This document shows positions 10,557 to 38,965 of a DNA stretch of 64,000 nt, piece by piece. Every line of letters begins with the position of its first letter. The stretch's first letter is position 1. The translations under genes and the position numbers were made by a program. The notes under the pieces were generated by a model. That model was not told where the DNA came from and did no database searches. It was given only the letters and a program-made list of their open reading frames with translations. Source of the stretch: an uncultured archaeon (GTDB taxonomy: Archaea > Nanobdellota > Nanobdellia > Pacearchaeales > GW2011-AR1); contig CAIKMX010000037.1 of NCBI GenBank assembly GCA_903828655.1, positions 17,173 to 81,172 of the forward strand. Direction: 5' to 3'.

Positions 10557-10592
10557 GTAACATGTGTGGAGGAATCGTTTTGTTAGGAGCAT

Positions 10593-10680
10593 TCTTTATG
10601 TTTATATTGCCAAAATTTAAATAAACAAAAGTTGCCAAGTATGTCAACGGATTGGGAGATACCAAAAATTGCGCGAATAA
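10593..10680 (+). repeat. R1 modular intergenic repeat, copy a (module A)
   Basis: Has ttgccaagtatgtcaacggattgggagataccaaaaa. It is preceded at 10561-10590 by module B, tgtggaggaatcgttttgttaggagc. Confidence 0.6.
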
Positions 10681-10710
10681 ATTTATATACTCTAGTTTGT
10701 ATTTAGTTCC

Positions 10711-11055
10711 ATGACAAGGGGTGCGCATCATATACATAGACATGTTAAGAAGAGGGTGAGTGAGAGACATGTTGAAGAGAAAATCGAGGATTCTGCTTTT
10801 AGAAGAGGAATTGACAAACTTGTTTTGATTATCGCTTTTTTAGCTCCTCTTGTTGAACTGCCTCAGTTGATTGAAATTTATGCACTTAAGGCTGCTGGAA
10901 GTGTTTCTTTACTAACTTGGAGTATGTTTGTTGTATTTGGAGTTCCTTGGTTGATTTATGGGATTATACATAAGGAGAAGCCGGTGATAATCTTGTATTC
11001 ATTATGGATAATAATTGATTCTGCGATTGTTGTTGGAATATTACTGTATGGGTGA
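10711..11055 (+). CDS. small PQ-loop (SemiSWEET-like) membrane protein
   Basis: 114 aa. LAPLVELPQLIEIYALK carries the PQ motif at the start of TM1, followed by two more helices. The N-terminal 45 aa is basic and non-membrane. Confidence 0.45.
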   Translation: MTRGAHHIHRHVKKRVSERHVEEKIEDSAFRRGIDKLVLIIAFLAPLVELPQLIEIYALKAAGSVSLLTWSMFVVFGVPWLIYGIIHKEKPVIILYSLWIIIDSAIVVGILLYG

Positions 11056-11091
11056 TAACTGGTCTTGTTGCTGGTGCATAAAATTAAAAAT

Positions 11092-11215
11092 GGACAATGT
11101 TGTCAACGGATTTGGATGTTACTGAGAAGCGAGCCCGGAGGGCGAGCGTTGATTGTCGCTCGAAACTGGACTCCGTCACATTTTCTCGCTCTCTCGTAAT
11201 TTTTGTGAATGGATA
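11092..11215 (+). repeat. R1 modular intergenic repeat, copy b
   Basis: Has gttgtcaacggatttggatgttac, aagcgagcccggagggcgagcg, tgtcgctcg...ctcgctctctcgtaatttttgtgaatgg. It aligns with the copies at 19923 and 22510. Confidence 0.65.
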
Positions 11216-11272
11216 ATATTTTTACATGATCGGCAGTTATTTATTACAAATGTTTTTGGCAGAGAAACAAAA

Positions 11273-11626
11273 TTATCTCTTGAGAACTCTTGCTTTCATT
11301 GTTCTTGGTTTTAGAAGATTCTTGAGATCTTCGAAAACTTGTCTTGCTTTGTCGTCGTTATTTCCTGTTGCATTGCAGGTGAAGATATCTAATTGTAGTG
11401 AATTCTTTTTTTCTGGCCAGGTATGAATTGAGACGTGAGATTCTGAAATAATAAAAACTCCCGTGAAACCAGCTTTGGGAAATTTGTAAAAACATCTTCC
11501 AACAATATGAAGCCCAGATCTTTTTATTATGTGTTCTGCTTTTCTTTCGAATAGTTTCTCGTCGAGAAGCAGACGTTTGTCTAAACATTCATAAAAGTTA
11601 GCTATAAAATGTATCCCCTCCATCAA
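11273..11626 (-). CDS. speH: S-adenosylmethionine decarboxylase proenzyme, SpeH type (pyruvoyl-dependent)
   Basis: 117 aa. ESHVSIHTWPE is the classic class-1b AdoMetDC self-processing motif. The size matches archaeal/Bacillus SpeH. Confidence 0.85.
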   Translation of the reverse strand: MMEGIHFIANFYECLDKRLLLDEKLFERKAEHIIKRSGLHIVGRCFYKFPKAGFTGVFIISESHVSIHTWPEKKNSLQLDIFTCNATGNNDDKARQVFEDLKNLLKPRTMKARVLKR

Positions 11627-11701
11627 TTATATATAAAAAATCTATTTATAAATTTATTTCTCAATAGAAAGAGTTTTAATCTTGCGTTATTTAGGTATTT
11701 T

Positions 11702-12388
11702 ATGATAGATTTCAACAAACTTATAGACAAATATCTTGAGAGAGAATTTAGACCAAAACAGATTGGGAGGTATTACCCCTCGGAAATTGGAGGGTGCTTA
11801 AGGAAAACTTGGTATTCATATAAGGTACCTAAAGCGACGGATACTAAACTCGCTAGAGTATTTGAGGCTGGAAATATGCTTCATGAGTTTATTGCTGAAG
11901 TGATAAAGAGTGAAAAGAATAAGGATGTTGAATTGCTTCAAAGTGAAATGCCTATCCAGATAAAAACTAAAGATTTTGTCATCTCGGGGAGGATTGACAA
12001 TCTTGTTTTGTTAAAGGTTTGTGATATTAATGGAAAATTTAAGGATGATGACTGTAAACAGGTTTTATTAGAAGTTAAATCTACAAAGTTTTTGCCTGAA
12101 TTTTGCAAAAAGGAACATGAAATGCAATTGCAGCTTTATATGAGGGCTACAGGTGTTGAGAATGGAATTGTTTTATATGTTCAGAAGGATAATATTGAGA
12201 CTAAATGGTTTGATGTTAAGCTGAATGTTGTTGAGGGAGAGAAGATTATCGAGAGGTTTGAAAAAATACACGAATCGCTTGTTTGTGGAAAGATGCCTAT
12301 TGCTGAAGCTAAGATGAATAAAGAGGATAAATGGATGTGTGATTATTGTCCTTGGAAGGAAGAATGCGATAAGGAAGGTAGTTTTTGA
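11702..12388 (+). CDS. Cas4-like PD-(D/E)xK nuclease with a four-Cys cluster (stand-alone)
   Basis: An N-terminal Cys (EIGGCLRK), the D...EVKST (ExK) nuclease core and a C-terminal CDYCPWKEEC give the Cas4/AddB-type C...Cx2Cx5C Fe-S arrangement. No cas genes nearby. The ORF track starts at 11609, but 11702 avoids overlap with speH. Confidence 0.6.
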   Translation: MIDFNKLIDKYLEREFRPKQIGRYYPSEIGGCLRKTWYSYKVPKATDTKLARVFEAGNMLHEFIAEVIKSEKNKDVELLQSEMPIQIKTKDFVISGRIDNLVLLKVCDINGKFKDDDCKQVLLEVKSTKFLPEFCKKEHEMQLQLYMRATGVENGIVLYVQKDNIETKWFDVKLNVVEGEKIIERFEKIHESLVCGKMPIAEAKMNKEDKWMCDYCPWKEECDKEGSF

Positions 12389-12423
12389 GTAAGATTTAAA
12401 TAAACTGGAATGGTGTCTAGTCC

Positions 12424-13620
12424 ATGGGAAGAGGGTTTACATTTTTTGTTTTTTTGGCTTTAGCTGTTTCTCTTTTAGTTTTAGTTGGATTAAGGTTTAC
12501 GGGCTTTGTTCCTCTCAATACTCAAGACACTAGTCCTTGTACTGTTGATTTTAATGAAGATGGAGCTATTGATTTGCAAGATTTTGGAGTATTGAAGGAT
12601 AATTTTGGAGCTACGGATATCTCTGGAAACTATTCTTTTTGGAGAAGAGGTGATGCAAATCTTGATGGGGTAATTGATATTCAGGATTTTGGGTTGGTTA
12701 AGGGTAACTTTGGACAGAATGCTTCGGGGTGTCCGAATTTCTGTTCTAAGGTTATTAATTGTTCTGGAGAGATATTAGATGGTTGTTGTCCTGGAAAATG
12801 TTTGGGTATTGAAGACCTTGACTGTGTGCAAGATGGGGTTTTAATGAATTCTTTATGGACCGCGAACAGCGATGTTTTAGTGGATGGTGCATGGGAGAGT
12901 TCTTCGTGTTCTGAAGCGCTTAGTGTTGTTGATTCTGGAGAGGGGAGTGGAGAGTATGCTCTTCGGGCGGATTCTTCTAATAAAAATTATTGTTGTGTTC
13001 AGAATTCTTATGGATATCATTGCTATAATCTTTATGTGGTGAATAAATTTCCTAAACTTATGAGGTCCTGGGGGGGAGAAATGTACATTAACTTAAAAAA
13101 TGTGGATTTTTCTTATAGTGATGTTAATGGGCTTGCGGTGCTGGGGGCGTATAATACTCTTTCTAGTGGGAATAGAGATTTTACAATTCTGGCTCGTGCA
13201 AAAACTGGTGGAAGGGGGAATCTTTGTTTTAGTTATTTCTGGCCTTGGATGGGTTCTGCTGCAATGTGTGGCCCAGATCAAAGTGTTGATATCTCAAAGG
13301 CTATGTGGGAATCTTGGATAAAGGTTGAGTGGTGGTTTAGTAATAATTCAAATCTTTATGTTAAAGTTGGAAATACTAGTTGGAGTGATGACTGGCGTTT
13401 TGTTCCAGTTCAGAATCCTGACTCCACGCCTAATTACGTGGAGGTTTGTGATGCTTCGGCTGGTTGTGCTAGGTCCGGTTATTTTTGTGATAATGGGATA
13501 TGTAAGACGGATTTTGATAATGTGAGAGTTGGGTGGGTTAGTTCTTATCTTAATGGTAATGTTATGATTAAAAACGTAAAACTTTATGACGGTAATTTTA
13601 TTCCAGATAATTTACCTTAA
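12424..13620 (+). CDS. secreted Cys-rich protein with N-terminal tandem dockerin-like repeats
   Basis: A signal/TM segment (FVFLALAVSLLVLVGL) is followed by VDFNEDGAIDLQDFGVLKDNFG and GDANLDGVIDIQDFGLVKGNFG. Confidence 0.6.
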   Translation: MGRGFTFFVFLALAVSLLVLVGLRFTGFVPLNTQDTSPCTVDFNEDGAIDLQDFGVLKDNFGATDISGNYSFWRRGDANLDGVIDIQDFGLVKGNFGQNASGCPNFCSKVINCSGEILDGCCPGKCLGIEDLDCVQDGVLMNSLWTANSDVLVDGAWESSSCSEALSVVDSGEGSGEYALRADSSNKNYCCVQNSYGYHCYNLYVVNKFPKLMRSWGGEMYINLKNVDFSYSDVNGLAVLGAYNTLSSGNRDFTILARAKTGGRGNLCFSYFWPWMGSAAMCGPDQSVDISKAMWESWIKVEWWFSNNSNLYVKVGNTSWSDDWRFVPVQNPDSTPNYVEVCDASAGCARSGYFCDNGICKTDFDNVRVGWVSSYLNGNVMIKNVKLYDGNFIPDNLP

Positions 13621-13681
13621 ACTTGGGAGATATATTTAGCTCTCTTGAATAAAAAAGAATTAAGTTAAAATTAAAATTGGT

Positions 13682-13900
13682 TTATTTGTGTCTGCATGGG
13701 CATAAACTGCCTAAAGCAATTAATGCTGCAGCAATTGTTATTGCTATTGGAGCCCAAGATGGAGAAGGATTCCACCAAACTAATACTACGATTAGTATTG
13801 GTAATAACCAACTACCACAAGAACACATGGGGCATCTTTTCGCGGAACATGATTCGTCTTTCATATTCTCGATTTTTTGGCCCCTTTTTCTTTTTGCCAT
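13682..13900 (-). CDS. small hypothetical membrane protein with CxxC / CPC motifs
   Basis: 72 aa (MAKRKRGQKIENMKDESCSAKRCPMCSCGSWLLPILIVVLVWW...). A TATA-like gatataaatac sits about 30 nt upstream on the minus strand. Alternative plus-strand ORFs overlap it. Confidence 0.35.
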   Translation of the reverse strand: MAKRKRGQKIENMKDESCSAKRCPMCSCGSWLLPILIVVLVWWNPSPSWAPIAITIAAALIALGSLCPCRHK

Positions 13901-14057
13901 GGATTATTATGGAATATGGAGTATTTATATCTTATCTTAAGGGAACCAAGGTTTTGACTTGCAAGCTCTCTTGAGCACCATGACAGTTCAACCCTCCTGT
14001 TACAAAACCTTTTAAACGAACTTTATTTTGTAGGTTCAAAGGATGTAAAATATTAAA

Positions 14058-14696
14058 ATGCTTCAAACTATTCTCGATTTGTTCTTGCACTTAGATGCTT
14101 ATCTGATAGGGGTTGTCATGAAATATGGTTTGTTGGCTTATCCTATTTTATTTGTTGTTATCTTTCTTGAGACGGGAGTTGTTGTAGCTCCATTCTTGCC
14201 AGGGGATTCTTTGATATTTGTTGCGGGAGCTCTTTCTTCACAGGGTTTGTTAAGTTTTATGTGGCTTTTTATTACGATTAGTCTTGCAGCGGTTTTAGGA
14301 GATAGTGTTAATTATTTTATTGGGAAGTTTATTGGACGCAGAGTTACCAAAATTAAGTTTGTCAACGAAGAGCATATAGAGAAAACTGAAAAGTTTTATG
14401 AACAACATGGGGGCAAGACATTGATTATTGCACGTTTTATCCCTGTCGTTAGAACTTTTGCTCCCTTTATAGCGGGTGTTGGAAAAATGAAATACTCAAG
14501 ATTCTTTTCATATAATGTAATTGGGGGATTGTTATGGGTTGCAATTTTCTTATCTTTAGGTTTCTTCTTTGGGAATCTTCCTTTTGTTAAAAATAATTTA
14601 AGCGCGATAATTATATTCATAGTCTTATTTTCTTTTGTGCCAGGAATATACAAATTTTTTATGAATCGGATAAAGAAGATGATTGGGAAGAAATAA
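14058..14696 (+). CDS. DedA/TVP38-family membrane protein
   Basis: 212 aa with GDSLIFVAGAL and IARFIPVVRTFAPFIAGVGKM, typical DedA (SNARE-associated) motifs. Confidence 0.75.
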   Translation: MLQTILDLFLHLDAYLIGVVMKYGLLAYPILFVVIFLETGVVVAPFLPGDSLIFVAGALSSQGLLSFMWLFITISLAAVLGDSVNYFIGKFIGRRVTKIKFVNEEHIEKTEKFYEQHGGKTLIIARFIPVVRTFAPFIAGVGKMKYSRFFSYNVIGGLLWVAIFLSLGFFFGNLPFVKNNLSAIIIFIVLFSFVPGIYKFFMNRIKKMIGKK

Positions 14697-14710
14697 AATC
14701 ATTGCGGGAT

Positions 14711-15412: not shown

Positions 15413-15421
15413 CTTTTTAAG

Positions 15422-16546: not shown

Positions 16547-16801
16547 ATGCATTTTTTTATTTCTCGGCTATAATAATATTTTGGTAACATCTGTGGAGGA
16601 ATCATCGGGGTATGCGCATTTTTAGGTTGTTAAGCATTTTACATATAAACTTTGTTAAATAAACCTGTGAAGAATGAGAAGATACTAAAAGTAGGGTTTG
16701 GAGGTGAGGAGTATTAGTTATTTGCATGTTTTACAAGATTATTATTATTATTATTTTAAAAACATAGAAATATTTATAAAGGATATAGTGTTAACATATT
16801 T

Positions 16802-17980
16802 ATGAAAAAGTGGTTGGTGGCTGTTCTTATCGTCGTTGCTTTGGTGATTGTTGTTTTCGTTGGATTTAAAATAACTGGCAATGTTCCTCTTTATGTAGGA
16901 GATAAGGGTCCTTGTGCTGTTGATTTTAATGAAGATGGAATTGTGGATATACAAGACTTTGGAATGTTGAGGGATAATTTTGGAATTGAGTCTGGAGCGA
17001 ATTTTTCCCAGGGAGATGCTAATGAAGATGGGATGATTGATATACAAGACTTTGGATTGTTGAAGGATAATTTTGGTCAGATTGCAGATGGTTGTACTGT
17101 TCCCCCTATTTATGTTATTGATTCTTGTACTGCAGATATAAATCATGATGGGATTGTGAATTCTGCGGATATGTATCTTGTAGGTGATAATTTGGATAGA
17201 AATGATTGTGCCTTGGTTAACAGAAGATGTAATGGGACGGATGTAAATCAAGATGGCGGAGTTGACATACAAGATTTGGGGATGGTTAAGGATCATCTTA
17301 ATGAAACTGCTATTAATTGTCCTGATTATGTGCCTCCTTGTGTAGGTGGTGATTGCAGTTTTCAATTCGAGGCGGGAAGTGATACTTATTTGATGCTGAA
17401 TGATTTTCCTTTTAAGGATGCTGTTTATGATTTAAAGATACTATACGGAGATCGGTACGGAAATTCTACGTTTTATGGAGTAGGAAGCGATAGTAGTAAT
17501 CGATTAGCGGTTCCAGTTTCTTCTTATTTGAAGAATCTTTCATTTAATGCAGGCACTGATAGTTATTTTGTGGCTAGCAATATTAATACCTCTGAGTCTT
17601 ACCTAATGAAAGCTACAAATTTCAAGATTGCTAGTGGTACTAATAAGACTACGATACAATATAGAAAGGCTGATGGTTGGGCTACATTGAAAGAAGATGC
17701 TGCTAAAGATGATACTGCAACAATTGGTAACGTTGGTTTAACTATTGGAAAGGTAGATTATCAACAAAGAACGGTAGTAATCAAACCAGATGCCGATGTA
17801 AGTTTTACTAGAATTTATGCTAGAGATGGGAGATATATGGATTTACCAACCACAGACAGATTTCCACGGGCAGTATATAATTTTGTCGTTTATAACCCTG
17901 CTGGGACTATTAATCGGAATGTAACTGCATATTGGGATCGTTCTCTTCCTACGCCTGTTGTTGCACTTCTTTATAATTAA
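16802..17980 (+). CDS. secreted protein with two tandem dockerin-like modules (four Ca-binding repeats)
   Basis: After the signal, VDFNEDGIVDIQDFGMLRDNFG, GDANEDGMIDIQDFGLLKDNFG, DINHDGIVNSADMYLVGDNL and DVNQDGGVDIQDLGMVKDHL. The C-terminal beta-rich domain is unknown. Confidence 0.6.
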   Translation: MKKWLVAVLIVVALVIVVFVGFKITGNVPLYVGDKGPCAVDFNEDGIVDIQDFGMLRDNFGIESGANFSQGDANEDGMIDIQDFGLLKDNFGQIADGCTVPPIYVIDSCTADINHDGIVNSADMYLVGDNLDRNDCALVNRRCNGTDVNQDGGVDIQDLGMVKDHLNETAINCPDYVPPCVGGDCSFQFEAGSDTYLMLNDFPFKDAVYDLKILYGDRYGNSTFYGVGSDSSNRLAVPVSSYLKNLSFNAGTDSYFVASNINTSESYLMKATNFKIASGTNKTTIQYRKADGWATLKEDAAKDDTATIGNVGLTIGKVDYQQRTVVIKPDADVSFTRIYARDGRYMDLPTTDRFPRAVYNFVVYNPAGTINRNVTAYWDRSLPTPVVALLYN

Positions 17981-19861: not shown

Positions 19862-19895
19862 TCCTTTGTCGAGACAGATGTCTCGTCTATTTTGA
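19862..19895 (+). terminator. hairpin plus T-tract downstream of the 19573-19860 ORF
   Basis: cgagacagatgtctcg is a perfect 7-bp palindrome followed by tctatttt. Confidence 0.35.
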
Positions 19896-19922
19896 CGCAC
19901 TCGCTTTGCTCGTGCTGTTTTT

Positions 19923-20117
19923 GATTTGCCAATGCTTAATTTGTTGTATTGCCAAAGATGTCAACGGATTTTGGATGTTACCTAACTGTCGCTCGCCACT
20001 GGATTTCATCACAGTGGCTCGCTTTCCTGCCGTTTTGCGAATGTGCTAAACTTTTACTGGCTTGGTTAAGTTTTTTGTTTATATGTAAAATGCTTAAAAT
20101 TTTGAGTTGCTAAAACC
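19923..20117 (+). repeat. R1 modular intergenic repeat, copy c (full length)
   Basis: Has gatttgccaatgc...ttgccaaagatgtcaacggattttggatgttacc...cgctcgccactggatttcatcacagtggctcgctttcctgccgttttgcgaatgtgc...gttttttgttta...ttttgagttgctaa. It aligns with copies at 11092, 22510, 31896, 37928 (minus strand) and 38868. Confidence 0.7.
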
Positions 20118-21881: not shown

Positions 21882-21892
21882 GAAGATGAAAC

Positions 21893-22032
21893 CACTCTTT
21901 TCTTACACTCTTCTTTCTTTGAAAACTGAGGAAAACCACGGTTTTCCTGAAGGTGACCTTTCCCTTAAGAAAGGTGTTCAAGAAAGAAACTAAAATTGGT
22001 GTTTCAAAAGAAAAACTACAATAGTAAATAAC
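21893..22032 (+). repeat. R2 dispersed intergenic repeat, copy B (with a roughly 55-nt insertion)
   Basis: Has ccactcttttcttacactcttctttctttgaaaa...aattggtgtttcaaaagaaaaactacaatagtaaataacATG. The insertion contains the hairpins ggaaaacc-acgg-ttttcc and cctttccc-ttaag-aaagg. Confidence 0.7.
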
Positions 22033-22257: not shown

Positions 22258-22509
22258 ATTGGGTATTAATCTCTTTTTGGATGTTCGTATCCAGGAGAAG
22301 GACCAATTAGCTCTTGTCCTAATGGAAGTGGTGGTTCTGAAAGTGCTTTGGCTAAATTTCTCAATTGCCTGCTCCTCTCGGGTGAAGGAGGGCATGTTAC
22401 TTCCAAGTATCTATTTTGTGGAGGTAGTCTATTTGTGTAATCTGGTTCCATGATGTTGTGTCAAAATTTTAGTTTATAAAGTTAATCTTTTATCTAAAAA
22501 TTTATTGAA

Positions 22510-22704
22510 CATTGCCAAAGGTGAAATGCGGTTACCAAAAAGCTCTTCGCTCGCGTCCGCCTTTGGCAGGACGCTCGCTTTCACGCCGTTTTGTGAATGT
22601 GCCATTTCTTAACATACTTGGCTAAGTTTTTTGTTTAAAATATTTTGAGTTGCCAATATATGTAAGCTGTGACATTACCTAAAAGCGAGCCCGAAGGGCG
22701 AGCG
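22510..22704 (+). repeat. R1 modular intergenic repeat, copy d
   Basis: Has cattgccaaag...cgctcgcgtccgcctttggcaggacgctcgctttcacgccgttttgtgaatgtgcc...gttttttgtttaaaatattttgagttgccaa...gttacctaaaagcgagcccgaagggcgagcg. Confidence 0.7.
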
Positions 22705-22767
22705 TCTATATGGTTATGTATATTCTATAATATAAATTCTTATAAAGTCTGGCTGTTTGGGTTTTTC

Positions 22768-23223
22768 ATGCCAATCAATCCAATGATGTATAGAGTTTTT
22801 TTGCAGGATGCAGAAGGTCAGCCTGGAGCGTATGTGGTTGGGCATTGTATGATTCTTGCATGGAGTCATAGTCAACCTGATTGGAGACCTAGTTTAAGAG
22901 ATCAGTTGAGAATAGCTATTCGCAGCGCCGTTATTGGTCCAGGTTCTGAACCATTTGAAGATGGTCACTGGCCGATTAATTGTAACGGAAGGACTCTTGG
23001 AGTGGTTCATAAAAGAGAGGAACTTTCGGATAGAACTTATAATCTTGCTTTGGGTGAGGCCGTAGATTTAGCGAATGAGCTTACAGTTGAAAAAGGTAAA
23101 CCTTATGTTTTTATTAATGCAACTTCTCGAGGGGATAGGGTAGTGGCGGAGAGACTTGCTGGAATTGTTTACAATGAGGTTGTTGAGGCTGCTTCACCAA
23201 GTGCGAGAGATATCGGTGATTAA
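22768..23223 (+). CDS. hypothetical protein, compositionally GC-richer than its neighbours
   Basis: A 151-aa ORF from the internal Met. The track start at 22669 overlaps the R1 repeat. No recognisable motif. The nucleotide composition is visibly less AT-rich than the flanks. Confidence 0.45.
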
Positions 23224-24881
23224 TTAGTATTTTGTATCTTTTCTTTCGCAAAAGTCTTTGCAACAATTAGTGGAAATAATATTGTTGCGTCTCCGTGTAC
23301 TTTGACAGATTCGCCGTCAATTGCTATTTTGCCCCAGGAGACTGCTTCGTCTGGCCTCGCGCCTGAGTCGGATGCGTCGTATTCTTGTGCGGTGTTTATG
23401 AATACAGTATAATCTGCGCCGTTTCTGTAAAGATTTGCATTGCAGATTGTATGTTTAACAATACCTGCACCCAAGACTATCATGCCTGTTTTATCTTTAC
23501 CTATTGTGCTATTGTTTAATTCTGTAATATCTTCTACTAAGTCTAGAGTAAAGTTTGGATTCTTTGACATCTTGTAAAAATAAATCATATCTCCGATTGA
23601 ACCGTCCATTATTGCAGGGCAGATTACTGGAATGTTATTTTTTTGAGCCCAGTAATAAATTGATTGTTTGTATTTTTGGTTTTGTTTTGCTCTTGGATGA
23701 TCTTCAATTTCTTTTCCTAGAAGTTTTATTAGCTGTGATGGCGTTTTGATGTTTTCTTTATTTTTGTCTAATATTGGCAGAACCCATTCTTCAAACTCAC
23801 AATATCTTGAGTTTGGTACGAAAATATTGCCGATTCGGTTTATCCCTTTTTCTCTAAGTTCTTTTCCGCTTGCATTGAAACTTCCAAGCTTGAAATCTCC
23901 AATACACTTGATGAAATCTTCTTCTATTCCTCCTGCTGTTGTTACAAGAACGTCAATCATTTTGTGTTCAGCAAGATAACGGATGATTTCTCTATTTCCT
24001 GTTGAAACCATGTTTGAAGTGTATCCCAGATAAATGAAAACTTTTTCTTTTCTCATTTTGTTTATTATTTCTATTGCTTTTGAAAGGTTTGTTGCTTGAG
24101 CTCCAACAGTCTCAAAAGAATCTAGAATTTTATTGAAGTCTACGCCGTTGTTGAAATCGTAACCTTTGATTGTTTTTCCTTCTATCTCTTCGCTTTCTTT
24201 TAGGATTGCTTCTCTTGCTGCGTGTTCTTTTTCATTTTTTGAAATATTTGAATTGAGGGAATCCCACACTATGCTTTTTTCTTCTGGGAGAAGAACAAGC
24301 ATTTTGCTTTTTGTTATTAACTTGTATCCTTCTTTGGAGGGTTTGCTATTAACAATTCTTTTTCCATCTTTTTCTAAGATATATTCTTGAGAAATGAAAC
24401 TTCTTTCTTTACCATTAAATTTTTTTTCGAAGATGTTTACCCCCTTCGCACTAACGCATAAAGCAGAGAAGCCAATTACTCTTAATTTAGGATTTGATTT
24501 TTTTAGGTTACCTATTACATCTTTTAATTCAAAGAGTACTGATTTGTAAAATTCGGTTATTGTTTTATCAATTTTTTCTATGTGGTAGATGTGAATCCCT
24601 ATTTCTTCGTCTCTTGTATTGTCAAATATTGTGCTTTCGTTTAGTTCTGATTCTGCTAACTTTCCTTGTGTTAGTTTTGTCCAACCCGTTTTGTTTAGGG
24701 GAATTACTATACAATCTGCTACGACTTCTTTTCCTTCTTTGAAGATCATACCAAATTCGGGATTTTTTGCATACCACTTCGAGATAATTTCCTTAGTTAC
24801 AGGGCTATTGGTTGGATAGATCTCTTTGTCTTGCTTTAGTATTAGTTCAAAATCATTGTGGGTTATATTATATTTTTTCAT
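23220..24881 (-). CDS. dhs: deoxyhypusine synthase fused to a roughly 215-aa N-terminal extension of unknown function
   Basis: The C-terminal roughly 335 aa align almost residue-by-residue with eukaryotic/archaeal DHS ([95 protein letters not shown]). The N-terminal part ([17 protein letters not shown]...) has no DHS counterpart. Confidence 0.85.
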
Positions 24882-31584: not shown

Positions 31585-31665
31585 GTTTTGGTTCTCCTAT
31601 TTTAGATAGTTAACTATAGTTAACTTATGTTTATAAACTTTATGAAATGAAGATACTAAACTTTT

Positions 31666-31851: not shown

Positions 31852-31895
31852 TTTTGTAATAAATTTTTAACCTATATAAATCTTGCTTTGTTTTT

Positions 31896-31994
31896 GATTT
31901 GCCAATGCATAAGTTATTTTGTTGCCAAGTATGTCAAAGGATTGTGATGATACTAAATTGTTTGGTAACTTGTGGCGGAGTCGTTGTTGTAGGA
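31896..31994 (+). repeat. R1 modular intergenic repeat, copy e (modules A+B)
   Basis: Has gatttgccaatgcataag...ttgccaagtatgtcaaaggatt...cttgtggcggagtcgttgttgtaggag. Confidence 0.6.
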
Positions 31995-32129
31995 GAAATT
32001 TTATTAGCAGGTTAGCTTTTTAATTTATAAGATGAAGAGGGGCTTAATTAATATGGCGGATTTAACTTCCATATTTAGATATTCTTTTATGCATTTTAGT
32101 GCATAAAAGTTTTTAAAGGGTAATTTATT

Positions 32130-32687
32130 GTGAGAGTGATGGTGATTATTTGGTTTATCGTATTAGGGATTGTATTCTTAATGGCTTTGATATTCTTTGC
32201 ATATTACTCTAAGCTTTCTAGTCTGACTAATAAAATTGATAGTTCTATCTCATTAATTAGCGCTCAGATAAGGAGAAGGGCTTCATTGGCGCCATCTCTT
32301 TTGGCTAATATTGGAGGGTATGTAAAAAATGAGAGGAAGCTTGGTGAGGACATTACTAGTGCAAGACTTGCACTTTTAGATGCTCCAAATATGTCTGCAA
32401 AATTGCGAGCGGGGGCTCAGCTTCATATGGCTATAAGAACTGTTTTAGCTTCTGCTGAGAGCTATCCTACTCTTAAGAATAATGATCGTTTTCAACAATT
32501 AAGAAATGAACTTTTAGAAATTGATAAAATTGTTTCCAATGCTCGAAAAACTTATAATGATGGAATAATGGTCTACAATGTAATGATGCATTCTTCACCT
32601 GCTAAATGGTTTGCGAAGTTATATGGTTTCGGAAAGAGAGAGTTTTTGAAAATTCCTGCCGAGGATAGTTTTGGTGAGAAGAAATAG
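32130..32687 (+). CDS. lemA: LemA-family membrane protein
   Basis: An N-terminal TM helix and the conserved ESYPTLKNNDRFQQLRNELLEIDKIVSNARKTYN LemA core. Confidence 0.75.
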   Translation: MRVMVIIWFIVLGIVFLMALIFFAYYSKLSSLTNKIDSSISLISAQIRRRASLAPSLLANIGGYVKNERKLGEDITSARLALLDAPNMSAKLRAGAQLHMAIRTVLASAESYPTLKNNDRFQQLRNELLEIDKIVSNARKTYNDGIMVYNVMMHSSPAKWFAKLYGFGKREFLKIPAEDSFGEKK

Positions 32688-32700
32688 TTCTTTATAAAAT

Positions 32701-32803
32701 ATTTTGAGTTGCTAAGATGAAATGCTGTTACCAAAAAGCGAGCGAACGAAGTGAGCGAGCGTTAATAGGTATCCCTTGTGGAGGAGTCGTTGTGTTAGGA
32801 GCT
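32701..32803 (+). repeat. R1 modular intergenic repeat, copy f (modules C+B)
   Basis: Has attttgagttgctaagatgaaatgctgttaccaaaaagcgagcgaacgaagtgagcgagcg...cccttgtggaggagtcgttgtgttaggagc. Confidence 0.6.
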
Positions 32804-32833
32804 TTTATTGTTTGTTGTTAAGCATTATATTAT

Positions 32834-33814: not shown

Positions 33815-33928
33815 TTACTTTTCTCCTCCGATTTTAATAAATAGTTAACTGCCCTTTTAAATATTAGTTAAGGCTGTTAACCTTATTATTTAATATTATA
33901 ACAAAGGTTTTAAATATATTCATTCTTA

Positions 33929-34894: not shown

Positions 34895-34901
34895 TATTCT
34901 G

Positions 34902-35408
34902 ATGGTTCAAAAGAACAAAAACCTCGTCTGGAAATTTACAAATCAGCGGGAGCTGACTAAATCACAATTCTTGGATTATTTTGAGAAAAAGATTTTTAGG
35001 ACGATTAGACAATATGGGATGTTGAAGGATAAAGAAGGAAGAAGAATAAAACTGAAGAGAGAGAATAGTTTAAATTTTAAGGTTTTGAAACAAATCTTGG
35101 AAAAGAAGTTCGAGGTAAATGTTGTTGCAAAGGGATTTGATGTTTGTTCGGATAATCTTTCTGATGTTGCTGAAAGTGCATTTGAGAAGGTACTTGATGG
35201 AAACTTTAATCTTTCCAAAATGAAACCTGAAAATCAACCTCTTTATTTTTTATCTGACGCTGAAGTCATTTTATACTCTAAACTTATTGGCGTGAAAGGA
35301 AAGAATAACCTAAGGAACACTCATGTTCAGAAACTCTTTGCTACTTTTATGAAGAAAAATCCTGATTTAGAACATAATGTGGTTAATGCGATGAGACAAC
35401 TTGACTAG
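34902..35408 (+). CDS. hypothetical protein downstream of tyrS
   Basis: 168-aa ORF, 7 nt after tyrS. No motif recognised. Confidence 0.4.
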   Translation: MVQKNKNLVWKFTNQRELTKSQFLDYFEKKIFRTIRQYGMLKDKEGRRIKLKRENSLNFKVLKQILEKKFEVNVVAKGFDVCSDNLSDVAESAFEKVLDGNFNLSKMKPENQPLYFLSDAEVILYSKLIGVKGKNNLRNTHVQKLFATFMKKNPDLEHNVVNAMRQLD

Positions 35409-35517
35409 TTTCCTCTAAATTTTTCTAAATTTTTCAATTTTTATTGTCTATTTTATCATTTTTCCAGTTGATTTTTAGTCACATAATATTTAAATACCAA
35501 AACATCATAAAAAATGT

Positions 35518-37818
35518 ATGAAAAAAGGGATAGTGATGATGTTTGTTTGCCTCGCTTGCTTTATTTGCCTTCTATTTGGGGTGTCTGTTGTTTCTGCAAG
35601 AATGGCGATTACGGAACCTTCAAGTGCATATAATCTCGGTGATAAACTTTATGTGAGTCTTGGAGGAATAACAGGGGCTAGTTCAGGAAACTTGAACATT
35701 AATCTTCTTTGCTCAAATCAAACTATAAATCTGCTTAAGATTTCCGCTAGAGCTTTTTCTTCTACACAAGAACAATCCTATTCTTTACCATATAAAGAAC
35801 TTACAAAAGAGGATTTAGAGATTGCAAATACTCGAGACGTTCTTGGTAGCTGTCAGATTACTGCGTCACTTGGTGCTGAACAGACCACAACAAGAATGTT
35901 TACGATAACAGATAGTGTTAGTTTGTCAAATCGATTTGATAAAATAACTTATAATCCTGGAGATTTGATAACCGTGACTGTTGAGGCGACAAAGGCAAAT
36001 AATCAGCCGCTTAATGGATTTTTAGAGACTAGTGACGCGGCAGTTATCAATAAAGAAGTTGTAAATGGAAGAGCGACACTAACTTTTTCAATGGCTCCAG
36101 ATACTAAGGCTGGAGATTATAATTTAGATGTTTTTGTTTATGATAAGGGCACAAGTGGAGAGACGTTAAATCAGGCAAATAGTTCTTCAACATTCAAAAT
36201 TAATCAGGTTCCTACGAATATACAATTGGGTCTTTCAACGAATCAGTTAGTTCCTGGAGAAGAACTTACAATTAGCGCAGATATCCTTGATCAAACAGGC
36301 GATAAGATAAAAGGGGCTGTTTCATTGAGTACTAATTCTTCAAATACTCGGGAGACCCGTTCAGTTAATGTTAACTCTGGCGAGTTCGCAAAGATGAAGT
36401 TTGCTACGAACACTACCCCTGGGATTATGTATATTAATGCGAAGTTTGCGGATATACAACAAACTGAGGAGTTTGAGATACTTCCTCTTGAAAAAGTAGA
36501 TTTTGAGTTTATAGATACGGTATTAGTTATTAAAAACGTTGGAAACGTTCCATATACAAAACCTGTAGATGTTAAGATTGGCGAGGGTATGCAAACTGTT
36601 CAGACCAATATTCCTGTTGGGGGAGAGCAGAAATTTAATTTGAAGGCTCCGACTGGAGAGTATAAGGTTGCAGTTAGTGATGGACAGTCTAATGTGGAGA
36701 GAAATATTCTTTTGACAGGAAAAGCGATATCTGTTAAGGATATAACTTCTGGTTCTATATTTTCAGATTATGCAGTTATATGGGTTTTCTTGATACTTAT
36801 CTTAATTGCGGCTGCAGCAATAATTCTTCTTAAGATGAGGAAAAGGCCTATGAGTTTAAAGGATTCAATGATGAAAAATGTTCCTTCTAAATTTTCAGAT
36901 ACCTTAAACTTTACAAATAAGTCTCCTGAAGCACAAAGTCTATATCAATCTGGAGATGGAAATGATGAGCATGGAATTGTTGATTTAAGAAAACCCCGAA
37001 TGATTGGTGCAGAGTCCGCGCTCGTTTTAAAGGGGGAGAAAACTCCTTCTGCAGTTATCTGTCTTCATGTGAAGAATTATTCGTCTCTTAAGCCGGCTGC
37101 CTCTCAAGAATTGGTTAAAGTTATTGGATTGGCAAAAGAAGAAAAGGGATTAGTTGATTGGAAAGATGATTTTGTATTTGTTATATTCTCTCCAATATCT
37201 ACGAAGACATTCAATAATGAATCCCATGCAATAATCGCTGGAATGGGAATGTTTGAGAGATTAAATGAGTATAACAAAAAGTTTAGGGATAAAATTGTAT
37301 TCAGTATAGGAATAACTTCTGGAGATTTGGTTGCTTCTCCTGAAGGAAAAATGTTGAAGTATACTGCCCTGGGAAATACAATTGCTCTTTCCAAGAGAAT
37401 AGCTGCTTCTGCTGAAGGACAGCTTCTTGTTACGGATCTTGTAAGAAATAAGCTTATGAGGGATGTAAAAGCGGATAAAGTTCAGGATATTGGAAGAGTG
37501 GCTATATACTCTGTAAAAGAAATCAAAGATCACACACAAAATAGGGCGAGACTTGATGAGATGATGAAGAGGATGAAGAGAGAAGATAATAGCGATAAGA
37601 ATAGTCCTAATTACACTAAAAGGTCTGATGCTCCTGGAATAAGCGGATCTTCACATAATCCTTATGCTAGAAGTACGCCGAGAACTCCAGTACATCCAGG
37701 GCATGTGAATCATAATGCAGCAAGCCATAATGCTCATAATCCTACCCATACTAATTCTTCTCACACGAATCATAATTCTCATCAACCTTCTCATCACACA
37801 AATGAGCATAAGAAATAA
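35518..37818 (+). CDS. single-pass surface protein with extracellular Ig-like repeats, a cytoplasmic degenerate class-III cyclase-like domain and a His/Asn-rich tail
   Basis: Signal peptide, then a beta-rich extracellular region of roughly 400 aa, then TM YAVIWVFLILILIAAAAIILL. The cytoplasmic part aligns along its length with CHD cyclases (AVICLHVKNYSSL / DDFVFVIF / IVFSIGITSGDLVAS / KYTALGNTIALSKRIAASAEGQLLVTDLV), but both metal-binding Asp positions are replaced. C-terminus HPGHVNHNAASHNAHNPTHTNSSHTNHNSHQPSHHTNEHKK. Confidence 0.6.
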   Translation: MKKGIVMMFVCLACFICLLFGVSVVSARMAITEPSSAYNLGDKLYVSLGGITGASSGNLNINLLCSNQTINLLKISARAFSSTQEQSYSLPYKELTKEDLEIANTRDVLGSCQITASLGAEQTTTRMFTITDSVSLSNRFDKITYNPGDLITVTVEATKANNQPLNGFLETSDAAVINKEVVNGRATLTFSMAPDTKAGDYNLDVFVYDKGTSGETLNQANSSSTFKINQVPTNIQLGLSTNQLVPGEELTISADILDQTGDKIKGAVSLSTNSSNTRETRSVNVNSGEFAKMKFATNTTPGIMYINAKFADIQQTEEFEILPLEKVDFEFIDTVLVIKNVGNVPYTKPVDVKIGEGMQTVQTNIPVGGEQKFNLKAPTGEYKVAVSDGQSNVERNILLTGKAISVKDITSGSIFSDYAVIWVFLILILIAAAAIILLKMRKRPMSLKDSMMKNVPSKFSDTLNFTNKSPEAQSLYQSGDGNDEHGIVDLRKPRMIGAESALVLKGEKTPSAVICLHVKNYSSLKPAASQELVKVIGLAKEEKGLVDWKDDFVFVIFSPISTKTFNNESHAIIAGMGMFERLNEYNKKFRDKIVFSIGITSGDLVASPEGKMLKYTALGNTIALSKRIAASAEGQLLVTDLVRNKLMRDVKADKVQDIGRVAIYSVKEIKDHTQNRARLDEMMKRMKREDNSDKNSPNYTKRSDAPGISGSSHNPYARSTPRTPVHPGHVNHNAASHNAHNPTHTNSSHTNHNSHQPSHHTNEHKK

Positions 37819-37927
37819 ATCTAAAATTATAAAGCTACCAAGATAAAATAAAAGAACTTAGCTAGATTATAAAAGAATAAACAGCCAAGAATGTAAAAAA
37901 ACATTGTCAAGCCAGTTAGGGAGATAG

Positions 37928-38030
37928 TCCATTCACAAAGAAATTTAGTTAAGCGAAGCACTGTGACGAAGTCCAGTGCGGAGCGTAGTTTGGTAATCTC
38001 ACAATCCGTTGGCACACTTGGTAAATCAGA
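37928..38030 (-). repeat. R1 modular intergenic repeat, copy g (reverse orientation)
   Basis: The reverse complement reads ttaccaagtgtgccaacggattgtgagattaccaaac...cgctccgcactggacttcgtcacagtgcttcgctt...tttgtgaatgg. Compensatory change in the hairpin: CACTG...CAGTG (copy c) versus GCACTG...CAGTGC. Confidence 0.65.
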
Positions 38031-38124
38031 CATTGTTTATATATAAAATGCTCAATAACAAACATAAATTTATCATCAACATTTAAAAACTTCTAATCAT
38101 GCAAATATTCGTGGTGATGCTGGC

Positions 38125-38748
38125 ATGAGAAAAACACTATTTTTTGATTTTGACGGAACTATTGTAGATACAAAATCTGTGTACTACAAAGAGATATATA
38201 ACGTTGTTAGAATTTTTGGTTATAAATATAGTCAGGTTGACAAGGCAATAGATTTAGGTTTAAGTTTAACTAGGACATTGAAAAGGCTGGGACTTTCTTC
38301 TGTTGCTTCTTGGTTTACAAAAAGAAAGATCACTCATAGTGTTGTGAGTCATATCGATGAAGTAAAAAAATGCAAGGATGTTGATTCTATAAAAAATTTG
38401 AGTAAAGATTATAATAAAATTCTTGTTTCTAATTCTCTTAAGGAGTTTATTTTACCGATAGTAAAAAGGCTTGGTTTAAATAAATGTTTTAGAGAAGTTT
38501 ATGGTACTGAAGATTTTGTTGATAAGGCTGACTTTTTGAAGGATTATATCGTGCGAAAGAAATTAGATAGAAAAAAATGTTTTTACATTGGGGATAGGGG
38601 AGTAGATGTCGAGGTTGCGAAGAGGATAGGCTGTAGAAGCGTTATAGTAAGTGGTGTTTGCGCTTGGGATTCAAGGAAAGAGGTTTTGAAGCATAAGCCA
38701 GATTTTATCATTAGTGATATAAAAGATTTGAATAAGATTTTGAAGTGA
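38125..38748 (+). CDS. HAD-superfamily hydrolase
   Basis: LFFDFDGTIVDT is the DxDGT motif I. It is the right size, and GDRGVDV is motif IV. Confidence 0.75.
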   Translation: MRKTLFFDFDGTIVDTKSVYYKEIYNVVRIFGYKYSQVDKAIDLGLSLTRTLKRLGLSSVASWFTKRKITHSVVSHIDEVKKCKDVDSIKNLSKDYNKILVSNSLKEFILPIVKRLGLNKCFREVYGTEDFVDKADFLKDYIVRKKLDRKKCFYIGDRGVDVEVAKRIGCRSVIVSGVCAWDSRKEVLKHKPDFIISDIKDLNKILK

Positions 38749-38751
38749 AGA

Positions 38752-38852
38752 CACTCTTTTCTTACACTCTTCTTTCTTTAGAAAAGAAAGAATTGGTGTT
38801 TCAAGAAAGAAACTAAGATGGCGGTGTTTCAAAAGAAAAACTAAGATAGTAG
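38752..38852 (+). repeat. R2 dispersed intergenic repeat, copy C
   Basis: Has gacactcttttcttacactcttctttctttagaaaagaaagaattggtgtttcaagaaagaaactaagatggcggtgtttcaaaagaaaaactaagatagtaggatATG. It starts right after the HAD stop codon. Confidence 0.7.
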
Positions 38853-38867
38853 GATATGAATAATCTT

Positions 38868-38965
38868 GATTTGCCAAGTCTTAAATTTTGCTTAACTTTG
38901 CCAAGATGAAATTGAGATTACCTAATTTAGTAACATTTGTGGAGGAATCGTGGTGGCAACTTGTA
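38868..38965 (+). repeat. R1 modular intergenic repeat, copy h (modules A+B)
   Basis: Has gatttgccaagtc...ttgccaagatgaaattgagattacctaa...catttgtggaggaatcgtggtggcaac. Confidence 0.6.

What the first reader, a model, noticed from the sequence alone, without database searches (positions are those of the whole stretch)
10561..38965. Modular family of structured intergenic repeats (R1) at 8 or more loci
Three recurring modules occur in varying combinations. Module A is gatttgccaatgc..ttgccaa(a/g)(g/t)atgtcaacggatt.tg(g/a)gat(g)ttacc. Module B is ct(t)gtggaggaatcg(t)(t)gtg.taggagc. Module C is cgctcg..cactgga.ttc.tcacagtg.ctcgct.tc..gccgttttg.gaatgtgc, followed by gttttttgttta and ttttgagttgc.aa, and sometimes by aagcgagccc(g/a)gagggcgagcg. 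The loci are 10561-10680, 11092-11215, 19923-20117, 22510-22704, 31896-31994, 32701-32803, 37928-38030 on the minus strand, and 38868-38965. Solitary module B copies sit at 6236 and 16592. Copies are GC-richer than the surrounding AT-rich DNA. One hairpin varies in a compensatory way: CACTG-N10-CAGTG in copy c, GCACTG-N8-CAGTGC in copy g, and GCCC-gaa-GGGC versus GCCC-gga-GGGC. That pattern is the signature of a conserved RNA or protein-recognised structure rather than neutral debris. Candidates are a MITE-like element or a family of small RNAs, and the element is not recognisable as a described family.
Basis: seen in the sequence. Interest (0 to 1): 0.6.

Follow-up and report, generated by a model that had tools for sequence, protein, structure and literature searches.

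The report
Mosaic hairpin repeats in DPANN archaeon
Short non-coding DNA modules, one of them a conserved hairpin, lie between housekeeping genes of a small-genome Pacearchaeota-like archaeon and differ between close relatives, so they behave like miniature mobile repeats of the bacterial REP/BIME or MITE kind, not a new class of element.

Summary
All eight loci and both solitary B copies carry the described modules far above chance. The host is a Pacearchaeota-like DPANN archaeon.

I resolve four building blocks:
- A: TTGCCAA box, AT-rich TATA-like stretch, TTGCCAA-NN-ATG...GTTACC.
- B: GGTAAC-N3-TGTGGAGGAATCG, then a T-rich stretch.
- C: hairpin H, a conserved body and an oligo-T run.
- H: a 21-34 nt imperfect palindrome, CGCTCG-stem-loop-CTCGCT, found in both orientations.

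H shows true compensatory changes, all Watson-Crick. No reading frame is conserved, no Rfam family matches, and the window holds no transposase.

Seven orthologous spacers in three related lineages differ in occupancy. Several are "empty" in one lineage and "filled" in another. More distant relatives and the GTDB representative genomes gave no match.

The loci have no clear terminal inverted repeats and no fixed target duplication. Nine of ten loci share one orientation.

Best reading: a lineage-specific, non-autonomous mosaic repeat family, REP/BIME-like and loosely MITE-like. A small-RNA gene family is the main rival. Interest is moderate to low.

The parts
6225..6273 (+). Solitary module B, lying 8 nt after the stop codon of the MFS gene. 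It contains TTGGCAA, the inverse of the TTGCCAA box.
   Evidence: Sequence read; nhmmer B E=2.2e-9; exact TGTGGAGGAATC.
10554..10686 (+). Locus a: a B-A unit made of B (10554-10598), A (10602-10666) and a short GCGCG remnant. It sits between the GatB stop codon and the TATA box of the PQ-loop gene.
   Evidence: The orthologous site is empty in L004 and filled in L007. The element is 74-79% identical to the L007 copy, against 56% identity at four-fold sites of GatB.
11064..11241 (+). Locus b: A (11064-11126), inverted H (11128-11148) and C with H (11152-11241; H at 11157-11190). The two H units form an inverted doublet 8 nt apart.
   Evidence: It folds as a four-way junction with z = -1.67. The orthologous spacer differs in L007 and L004.
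16581..16665 (+). Module B followed by a degenerate A-like stretch, downstream of the trypsin-like protease gene.
   Evidence: The orthologous spacer in L025 is only 61 nt and lacks it.
19894..20117 (+). Locus c: a degenerate H remnant (19894-19910), A with two TTGCCAA boxes (19921-19986), C (19985-20084; H at 19990-20023; oligo-T at 20072-20081), and the start of a further A (20090-20113).
22488..22706 (+). Locus d: short A (22488-22541), C (22544-22639; H at 22548-22579 with a different stem sequence but the same shape), a second A (22628-22684) and inverted H (22684-22704).
   Evidence: Inverted arms GCTCGCTTT/AAAGCGAGC and GACGCTCGC/GCGAGCGTC. CM hits at E=5e-4 and 0.034 for units not used in training.
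31642..31661 (+). Remnant of the 3' part of module A (ATGAAATGAAGATACTAAAC). At this same point L020 carries a complete B-A unit and L028 carries an R2 palindrome.
31894..32040 (+). Locus e: A (31894-31957), then B (31962-32008), then a degenerate box/TATA-like stretch.
   Evidence: The element is absent from the orthologous spacers of L020 and L028.
32686..32812 (+). Locus f: short A (32686-32737), inverted H (32741-32761) and B (32766-32812). Its module order is a circular permutation of locus a.
   Evidence: The element is absent in L020, L022 and L028, where the spacer is only 21 nt in L028.
37896..38055 (-). Locus g: an A-C unit on the minus strand, with A at 38055-37988 and C at 37990-37896 (H at 37952-37985).
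   Evidence: The orthologous spacer in L028 is 8 nt.
38866..38974 (+). Locus h: A with two boxes (38866-38925), then B (38927-38974), directly downstream of an R2 palindrome.

Best explanation
R1 is a lineage-specific family of short, non-coding, non-autonomous mosaic repeats in a Pacearchaeota-like DPANN archaeon. It is the archaeal counterpart of bacterial REP/BIME elements and is only loosely MITE-like.

The repeating unit is X-A. X is either B or C, and both end in a T-rich run. A is a TTGCCAA box, an AT-rich TATA-like stretch, a second TTGCCAA box, then ATG...GTTACC-AAA. A REP-like imperfect palindrome, H, sits at the 5' end of C. It has a 4-6 bp lower stem, a bulged A, a 3-bp upper stem and a TTY loop, between CGCTCG and CTCGCT flanks. 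H also occurs on its own in the inverted orientation after A. Units occur singly, in tandem, truncated and circularly permuted.

Shown here:
- The modules recur far above chance.
- They carry no conserved reading frame.
- The hairpin is kept by compensatory changes.
- Orthologous spacers in related genomes differ in occupancy, so copies are gained and lost on the time scale of species divergence.

Inferred, not shown:
- Copies spread in trans, most plausibly as hairpin-bearing single-stranded DNA handled by an unlinked HUH-type enzyme (IS200/IS605 TnpA or RAYT-like), or by microhomology-guided copying from other copies.
- Copies decay by deletion between short repeats.
- Retained copies may secondarily supply oligo-T terminators and weak promoters.
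For: Recurrence and statistics.

Hairpin: 95% of cells paired, 3 pairs with double changes, 3 of 500 shuffles reach the score. The hairpin of locus d has an unrelated stem sequence but the same bulged-A shape, and the covariance model finds it without having been trained on it (E=5e-4). H occurs in both orientations and as inverted doublets in b and d.

Non-coding: copies differ by frameshifting indels. Stops are scattered in sense and antisense frames, and the B 'peptide' has no consistent start codon.

Occupancy differences in orthologous spacers:
- GatB|PQ-loop: filled in the window and L007, cleanly empty in L004.
- LemA|TrxR: filled only in the window.
- Fdx|LemA: filled only in the window.
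- 777-aa gene|HAD: 8-nt spacer in L028 against about 300 nt with locus g in the window.
- ProRS|95-aa gene: empty in the window, degenerate R1 in L025.
- HTH|Fdx: only an A remnant in the window, a complete B-A unit in L020, an R2 palindrome at the same point in L028.

Narrow distribution:
- Real copies occur in two contigs of metagenome Ga0194044 that share no genes with the window.
- Relatives at about 75% GatB or ProRS identity have none.
- Neither exact-pattern scan of the 185,579 GTDB species genomes gave a related hit: the first found nothing, the second only eight hits in unrelated organisms that I judge to be chance.
- Plasmids, phages and viral contigs gave no related hit either. The single viral-contig match, L029, lacks the rest of module B and I judge it chance.

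Strand bias: 9 of 10 loci and all 6 B copies lie on the + strand. By my own binomial estimate the two-sided p is about 0.02.
Against: - The window contains no transposase or recombinase (Pfam).
- There are no terminal inverted repeats beyond an imperfect 6-8 nt GGTAAC/GTTACC relation.
- Junction microhomologies vary (TAA, TTTAT, TATGRAA). Each filled-versus-empty difference could therefore equally be a deletion.
- H is missing from the B-A units, which also differ between lineages, so a hairpin-based mechanism cannot explain all units.
- The orthologous copy a is much better conserved than synonymous sites (74-79% against 56%). That fits selection on a host function at least as well as selfish spread.
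- Only about 15 copies were available, so the covariation statistics rest on 4-5 related sequences.
Confidence: 0.55

Rival explanations
1. R1 is a family of small RNA genes. Module A would be an archaeal promoter (TATA-like stretch between two TTGCCAA boxes) with a transcription start a few bases after the conserved ATG. C, or H plus B, would be the roughly 70-120 nt transcribed body with the conserved hairpin. The oligo-T run would be the terminator. This reading can coexist with mobility.
For: - An AT-rich stretch with an invariant AA lies at a fixed distance, about 17 nt, upstream of the conserved ATG in all 13 aligned A copies.
- This genome uses very regular TATA-21 nt-ATG promoters. The A modules of a and d5 score 9.5-9.6 against a weight matrix built from them, where real promoters score 10-15.
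- Locus g has a perfect TATATATA box 22 nt before GTG.
- C ends in GTTTTTTGTTTA in c, d and L001.
- The hairpin shows compensatory changes.
- The orthologous copy a is conserved above the synonymous-site level.
Against: - Most A copies fall below the 99.8th-percentile cut-off of the weight matrix in the right orientation. In d3 and f the better hit is on the opposite strand.
- Whole A-C units fold no better than shuffled sequence on the + strand (z = -0.22), and better on the minus strand (z = -2.49).
- The helix contains no G-U pair.
- No Rfam family matches even at E = 10.
- Copies are truncated, permuted and absent from orthologous sites, which is unusual for functional RNA genes.
- No transcript data were available.
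Confidence: 0.2
2. R1 modules are host cis-acting punctuation. They would be terminator-promoter cassettes and binding sites for a DNA-binding protein that recognises the 7-bp palindrome TTG-S-CAA, kept by selection and spread between spacers by recombination rather than transposition.
For: - B or C lies directly after stop codons of + strand genes: 8 nt after the MFS gene, 1 nt after GatB and 8 nt after the upstream gene in L001.
- T-runs of 5-8 follow B in 4 of 7 copies.
- TTGCCAA boxes come in pairs 23-27 nt apart around the AT-rich stretch, 4 against 0.02 expected.
- Copy a is conserved above the neutral level.
- Copies are co-oriented with the prevailing gene direction.
Against: - The loci sit in convergent, divergent and co-directional spacers alike (ORF map).
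- Close relatives do without them. Their spacers are 8-61 nt, and the native TATA box directly abuts the upstream stop codon.
- Locus g points away from any gene it could serve.
Confidence: 0.12
3. The repeats are decaying copies of a small protein gene. Candidates are a leaderless ORF starting MSTD(W/C)(E/D)(I/V)TK in module A, or a short hydrophobic CGG(I/V)V... peptide in module B, as in type I toxin repeats.
For: - ORFs of 20-51 codons run through several copies (read by eye).
- Several differences between B copies fall on third codon positions. In a versus L007a, 4 of 6 do (read).
Against: - Copies differ by +1 or -1 indels inside the most conserved blocks (c, a and L007a).
- The long and short A variants differ by 8 nt.
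- Start codons are missing for B in 6227, 16584 and h.
- Stops are scattered in every sense and antisense frame.
- The ATG lies about 17 nt from the TATA-like stretch, not the 21 nt that this genome's leaderless genes use.
- The third-position excess is not significant (about p = 0.1 by my estimate).
Confidence: 0.05

Closest known systems
REP / BIME elements of bacteria (with REPIN-RAYT systems)
   Same: - A 21-34 nt imperfect palindrome with conserved mismatches and a bulge, found in both orientations and as inverted doublets.
- It is combined with other short conserved motifs into mosaics of varying composition.
- It is strictly extragenic and often lies just after stop codons.
- The stem is kept by compensatory changes.
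- No transposase lies within the element.
   Different: - The host is an archaeon. In the survey I read, tagged REPs were identified in species of 8 phyla; the phyla it names are bacterial, and I saw no archaeal example in the passages read (PMC3733652).
- There is no GTAG or CGTC tag.
- No RAYT gene is known for this lineage.
- Copy number looks low, about 10 loci in 64 kb, with the genome-wide count unknown.
- The non-palindromic modules A and B are longer than BIME linker motifs.
MITEs, including those counted in DPANN genomes by automated surveys (PMC11602168) and Correia/ERIC-type elements that carry promoters
   Same: - Small (about 100-200 bp), non-coding, multi-copy and intergenic.
- Presence/absence polymorphism between related genomes.
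- AT-rich internal sequence with promoter-like and terminator-like stretches.
   Different: - No terminal inverted repeats.
- No fixed-length target-site duplication.
- Copies are circularly permuted and modular rather than collinear.
Non-autonomous derivatives of IS200/IS605 (palindrome-associated elements)
   Same: - No terminal inverted repeats and no clear duplication.
- A subterminal hairpin with a bulged base at the left end of C-A units.
- Strand bias of insertions.
- Repeated use of the same insertion point, by R1 in L020 and by R2 in L028.
   Different: - A hairpin is present at only one end of most units and is absent from B-A units.
- No conserved 4-5 nt target could be established.
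- No TnpA or TnpB was found in any DNA examined.

Membership tests
Classical MITE (derived from a DDE-transposase IS) | Terminal inverted repeats at both ends | tested here: not met
   An inverted-repeat search of all 8 loci found no terminal arms. The only such relation is an imperfect 6-8 nt one between GGTAACAT and ATGTTACC, in B and the 3' end of A.
Classical MITE (derived from a DDE-transposase IS) | Target-site duplication of fixed length | tested here: not met
   Filled-versus-empty junctions show TAA or AATAA, TTTAT, TATGRAA and none for R2 in L028. The lengths vary.
Classical MITE (derived from a DDE-transposase IS) | Short, non-coding, multi-copy, with insertion polymorphism between related genomes | tested here: met
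Classical MITE (derived from a DDE-transposase IS) | A related autonomous IS with the same ends in the genome | not testable with these tools
   The window has no transposase. The rest of the source genome could not be fetched.
REP / BIME (REPIN-RAYT) | Imperfect palindrome of 20-40 nt, extragenic and repeated | tested here: met
   There are 7 H units in the window and 1 in L001, each 21-34 nt. They fold as .((..(((...)))..)). with 3-nt loops.
REP / BIME (REPIN-RAYT) | Unpaired GTAG or CGTC tag at one end | tested here: not met
   The flanks are CGCTCG and CTCGCT. CGTC occurs at the outer flank of both H units of locus d, but not at the other H units.
REP / BIME (REPIN-RAYT) | Units in alternating orientation, mosaic with other conserved motifs | tested here: met
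   Inverted H pairs occur in b (8-nt spacer) and d (about 100-nt spacer). Mosaics with A, B and the body of C are seen.
REP / BIME (REPIN-RAYT) | A single-copy RAYT gene flanked by the repeats | not testable with these tools
   None was found in the 64-kb window or in the related loci examined. The whole genome was unavailable.
IS200/IS605-derived palindrome elements | Subterminal hairpins at both ends, no inverted repeats, no duplication, a specific short target, strand bias | tested here: inconclusive
   H lies 4-8 nt from the left end of the C-A unit in L001. A right-end hairpin is seen only in d. Possible targets are after GAAA(TAA) at two sites and after ATGAAA at a third. Nine of 10 loci are on one strand.
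Any Rfam RNA family (including C/D box sRNA) | Match to a covariance model; for C/D RNAs, RUGAUGA and CUGA boxes at the ends | tested here: not met
   Only tRNA-Arg reaches the gathering score. Nothing meaningful appears at E up to 10 in three R1 regions. GTGATGA is present only in copy e.
Small protein or type I toxin gene repeats | Conserved reading frame with start and stop | tested here: not met
   Frameshifting indels between copies, missing start codons and scattered stops.

The most novel reading that the evidence does not exclude
R1, together with the neighbouring R2 palindromes, could be the first REP/BIME-type system described in Archaea. In that reading the hairpin units are copied as single-stranded DNA by a single-copy HUH (RAYT- or IS200-like) enzyme in a streamlined DPANN genome. 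The retained copies would be domesticated as terminator-promoter punctuation, or expressed as structured small RNAs of about 110 nt.
Probability: 0.2. Interest if true: 0.6.

Novelty: new variant of a known kind. Interest (0 to 1): 0.35.

Why it matters
- DPANN archaea have very small, gene-dense genomes, and close relatives of this one have spacers of only 8-60 nt. A clade in which modular palindromic repeats inflate many spacers, and differ between sister lineages, shows that streamlined symbiont genomes still carry active repeat turnover.
- The repeats offer natural markers for strain typing.
- They probably explain why assemblies of these relatives are so fragmented.
- If a cognate enzyme were found, REP-type biology would be extended from Bacteria to Archaea.
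- As it stands, the finding is a descriptive addition to a known kind of element.

Tried and rejected
**Coding readings**
1. Sense ORFs (MSTD..., CGGIV...) and antisense ORFs (AHSQNG...) were rejected. Copies differ by frameshifts, starts are missing and stops are scattered.

**Structure and promoter tests**

2. Module A as a strong canonical promoter. A weight matrix built from 20 real promoters gives only moderate scores for 2 of 9 copies, and the spacing to the ATG is 17 nt rather than 21.
3. Terminal inverted repeats: none found.
4. Overall RNA structure of whole units is not better than shuffled sequence.

**Searches for more copies**

5. Rfam at gathering score and at E up to 10: nothing.
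6. Two exact-pattern scans of GTDB genomes. The first gave 0 hits. The second gave 8 hits in unrelated organisms that I judge to be chance, consistent with about 17 expected. The second copy in L012 is a duplicated coding segment, not R1.
7. Four viral-contig scans gave nothing except one match judged to be chance, L029. Plasmid and phage BLAST gave nothing.
8. L003 from the metagenome scan is a chance match inside a gene.
9. Fetching the 94-kb source contig failed.

**Ideas dropped after reading the sequence, without a formal test**

   - Archaeal origin-recognition boxes. The loci are scattered over 30 kb and the GC skew does not switch.
   - tRNA-derived element. There is no similarity to the tRNA-Arg.
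   - Integron attC sites. The neighbouring genes are core housekeeping genes, and the core sites do not fit.
   - C/D box sRNA.
   - Split-tRNA leaders.

**Recent transfer of locus a**

11. Recent transfer between lineages was rejected, because the flanks show normal divergence.
Full report
**Host and setting**

The window is 36% G+C with a uniformly positive GC skew, and most genes lie on the + strand. Pfam identifies GatD, GatB/E, an archaeal-type ProRS, deoxyhypusine synthase, TyrRS/TrpRS, DisA, NifU/NifS and other housekeeping genes. The closest named homologues of GatB and ProRS are from 'Candidatus Pacearchaeota' and Nanoarchaeota MAGs. An identical GatB is recorded on a 94,193-bp contig, which I could not fetch. 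The only Rfam or ARAGORN feature in the window is a tRNA-Arg. No transposase, integrase or HUH protein is encoded in the window, even at E up to 1.

Yes.

| Test | Result |
|---|---|
| blastn-short between loci | 12-48 nt pieces at 83-100% identity |
| Module HMMs | every locus recovered, E = 1e-5 to 5e-27 |
| GCGAGC-N-GCGAGC | 5 against 0.01 expected |
| Paired TTGCCAA boxes | 4 against 0.02 |
| TGTGGAGGARTC, up to 1 mismatch | 6 against 0.45, all on + |
| Core of module A | 4 against 0.00 |

Corrections:
- Copy g has an N10 loop region, not N8.
- GCCC-gaa/gga-GGGC is a loop difference, not a compensatory change.
- Only the H-bearing copies are GC-richer than their flanks.
- The 'tail' module is the inverted form of the flanks of module C.

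**Anatomy**

Aligning 13 A copies, 8 B copies and 6 A-C units gives four blocks.

- **A** is an optional TTGCCAA box, an AT-rich TATA-like stretch with an invariant AA, and TTGCCAA-NN-ATG. The ATG is followed by either TCAACGGATTNNGANN (long form) or AAATGNN (short form), then GTTACC-(A/T)AA. TTG-S-CAA is itself a 7-bp palindrome. Its inverse occurs inside two B variants and inside the hairpin of locus d.
- **B** is GGTAAC-N3-TGTGGAGGAATCG-TTGTGTTAGGAGC followed by a T-rich stretch. Its first part is an imperfect inverse of the 3' part of A (GGTAACAT...AATCGTT against AACGGATT...ATGTTACC).
- **C** is H, then ttc..GCCGTTTTGCGAATGTGC, about 25 nt, and GTTTTTTGTTTA. It usually runs straight into the next A (c, d, L001).
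- **H** is CGCTCG-stem-loop-CTCGCT.

The arrangements are as follows: a = B-A, b = A-H'-C, c = (H remnant)-A-C-A', d = A-C-A-H', e = A-B-(A remnant), f = A-H'-B, g = A-C on the minus strand, h = A-B. The solitary B copies are followed by a degenerate A. Units can therefore be described as X-A, with X being B or C, in tandem, truncated or circularly permuted. Loci a and f are permutations of each other.

**The hairpin**

In the four long copies (c, g, b, L001), 95% of cells pair. Three of ten pairs changed on both sides: CC/GG, AA/TT and GC/GC at the base, and GAC/GTC to GAT/ATC at the top. Only 3 of 500 shuffles reach the observed covariation, and slid registers collapse to 30-43% paired.

The H of locus d has an unrelated stem (GTCCGCC-TTT-GGCAGGAC) but the same shape: a 3-bp upper stem, a 3-nt TTY loop, a bulged A on the 3' arm and a 4-bp lower stem. 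A covariance model trained without it finds it at E=5e-4, and finds the three short inverted H units at E=0.03-0.4. It finds nothing else in the window. Among the related loci it finds only L001, one of the four sequences it was built from.

The flanks pair partly (GC..GC around a T.T/C.C internal loop), so H is a 21-34 nt imperfect palindrome. All pairs are Watson-Crick. With so few independent changes, this cannot separate a DNA hairpin from an RNA hairpin.

**Not coding, and not a known RNA**

Several copies carry ORFs of 20-51 codons, but:
- Copies differ by +1 or -1 indels inside the most conserved blocks. The orthologous copies a and L007a differ by a frameshift.
- The long and short A forms differ by 8 nt.
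- B lacks a start codon in three copies.
- Antisense frames are full of stops.

Rfam gives nothing at E up to 10. Whole units fold no better than shuffled sequence on the + strand. Locus b folds into a four-way junction, and d into a long-range stem through its inverted H units, but only with z about -1.7 to -2.0.

**Promoter and terminator likeness**

This genome has strikingly regular promoters: TTTAWAWA, 21 nt, then ATG, which implies leaderless mRNAs. The TATA-like stretch of A lies about 17 nt from its ATG, so a start site would fall a few bases inside TCAACGG. A weight matrix from 20 real promoters gives 9.5-9.6 for A in loci a and d5, where real promoters score 10-15. It gives less than 6.4 for most other copies. 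C ends in an oligo-T run, and four of seven B copies are followed by T5-T8. A transcribed unit is therefore possible but not demonstrated.

**Comparative evidence**

One metagenome scan found two contigs (L001 and L002, Ga0194044) with clear R1 units (C-A, and A-C with H deleted). They are 79-96% identical to window modules and share no genes with the window.

Through close homologues I obtained orthologous regions from two sister lineages: L004-6, L022 and L025-28; and L007/8 and L020/21. The three lineages are roughly equidistant, with synonymous sites near saturation (four-fold identity 54-57%).

| Spacer | Window | L007 / L020 lineage | L004 / L022 / L025 / L028 lineage |
|---|---|---|---|
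| GatB \| PQ-loop | about 120-nt B-A unit | same unit | stop codon abuts the TATA box (TAAATTTATATA) |
| PQ-loop \| AdoMetDC | A-H'-C | short A-H' | degenerate B plus an R2 palindrome |
| HTH \| Fdx | only a remnant of the 3' part of A | complete B-A unit | R2 palindrome at the same point |
| Fdx \| LemA | locus e | unrelated 45-nt segment | no insert (L028) |
| LemA \| TrxR | locus f | none | none (21-nt spacer in L028) |
| 777-aa gene \| HAD | locus g in a 300-nt spacer | not sampled | 8-nt spacer (L028) |
| ProRS \| next gene | 44-nt spacer | not sampled | about 250 nt with degenerate B, A' and H'-like pieces (L025) |

Relatives at about 75% identity (L017, L023, L024) have compact spacers and no R1. 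Two exact-pattern scans of GTDB species genomes found nothing related. Viral contigs, plasmids and phages gave no related hit either; the one viral match (L029) looks like chance.

**Interpretation**

The family is gained and lost at many sites on the time scale that separates these lineages, and it is confined to a narrow clade. That is the behaviour of a non-autonomous repeat family.

It fails the MITE definition on two counts. It has no terminal inverted repeats. Its junction microhomologies are of variable length: TAA, TTTAT, TATGRAA, and none for R2.

It is closest in form to bacterial REP/BIME elements:
- an imperfect palindrome with a conserved bulge and mismatches;
- both orientations and inverted doublets;
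- mosaics with other motifs;
- a position just after stop codons;
- no internal transposase.

It lacks the GTAG or CGTC tag and a known RAYT gene. The REP survey I read reports tagged REPs in species of 8 phyla, and the phyla it names are bacterial (PMC3733652). High MITE densities have been counted automatically in some DPANN genomes (PMC11602168).

Several features fit a single-strand, hairpin-guided mechanism of the IS200/IS605 or RAYT type: nine of ten loci share one orientation, one insertion point is reused by both R1 and R2, and there are no inverted repeats. This is inference. B-A units lack H, and every 'insertion' could also be read as a microhomology-mediated deletion.

The orthologous copy a is 74-79% identical between lineages whose four-fold sites are only 56% identical. 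So either retained copies are under selection, as terminator, promoter or RNA, or the family consensus is held by the copying machinery.

**Verdict**

I favour a REP/BIME-like mosaic repeat family (0.55), with a small-RNA gene family (0.20) and host punctuation elements (0.12) as rivals that are not mutually exclusive. It is a new variant of a known kind, of moderate to low interest unless a cognate enzyme or transcripts are found.

Noticed in passing
window 4651-4787, 21887-22018, 38746-38843; L004:2615-2712 (inverted); L028:1-80: A second, unrelated palindromic intergenic repeat family (R2): ACACTCTTCTTTCTTT-AGA-AAAGAAAGAATTGGTGT followed by 1-3 GGTGTTTCAAAAGAAAAACTAAG units. It is also variable between lineages. 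In L028 it sits at exactly the point where L020 carries an R1 unit.
   Followed up: partly
window-wide, e.g. upstream of 320, 9093, 10711, 12424, 15698, 16802, 18035, 35518, 41299, 55542: Promoters are extremely regular. A TTTAWAWA box ends 21-22 nt before the ATG, with a purine-rich stretch upstream. This implies mostly leaderless mRNAs.
   Followed up: partly
window 7719-9038: A 439-aa ORF with no Pfam match lies between GatD and GatB. L007 has nothing there, with a 90-nt spacer. L004 has a different 117-aa ORF. The gene content of this spacer therefore varies between lineages.
   Followed up: no
window 23220-24881 (-): The deoxyhypusine synthase ORF is 553 aa, and the DS domain covers only residues 252-542. 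Relatives encode 314-322 aa DS proteins. The cause could be an N-terminal extension, a fusion or a mis-set start.
   Followed up: no
window 41299-49779, 55542-61682, 53280-55478, 61691-63313; also 29-185 / 4331-4487 / 16919-17075 and 12473-12609 / 16848-16984: Giant ORFs (2826 and 2046 aa), smaller paralogues and dockerin-like proteins share repeated coding segments at 76-93% identity (repeat finder D1, D2, D4, D5, D8, D16). They look like paralogous surface proteins. No reverse transcriptase is nearby, so I have no evidence for a diversity-generating retroelement.
   Followed up: no
window 16802-17980: A 392-aa dockerin-repeat protein gene lies between the trypsin-like protease and ProRS. It is absent from the orthologous 61-nt spacer of L025, and it lies next to the solitary B copy at 16581.
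   Followed up: no
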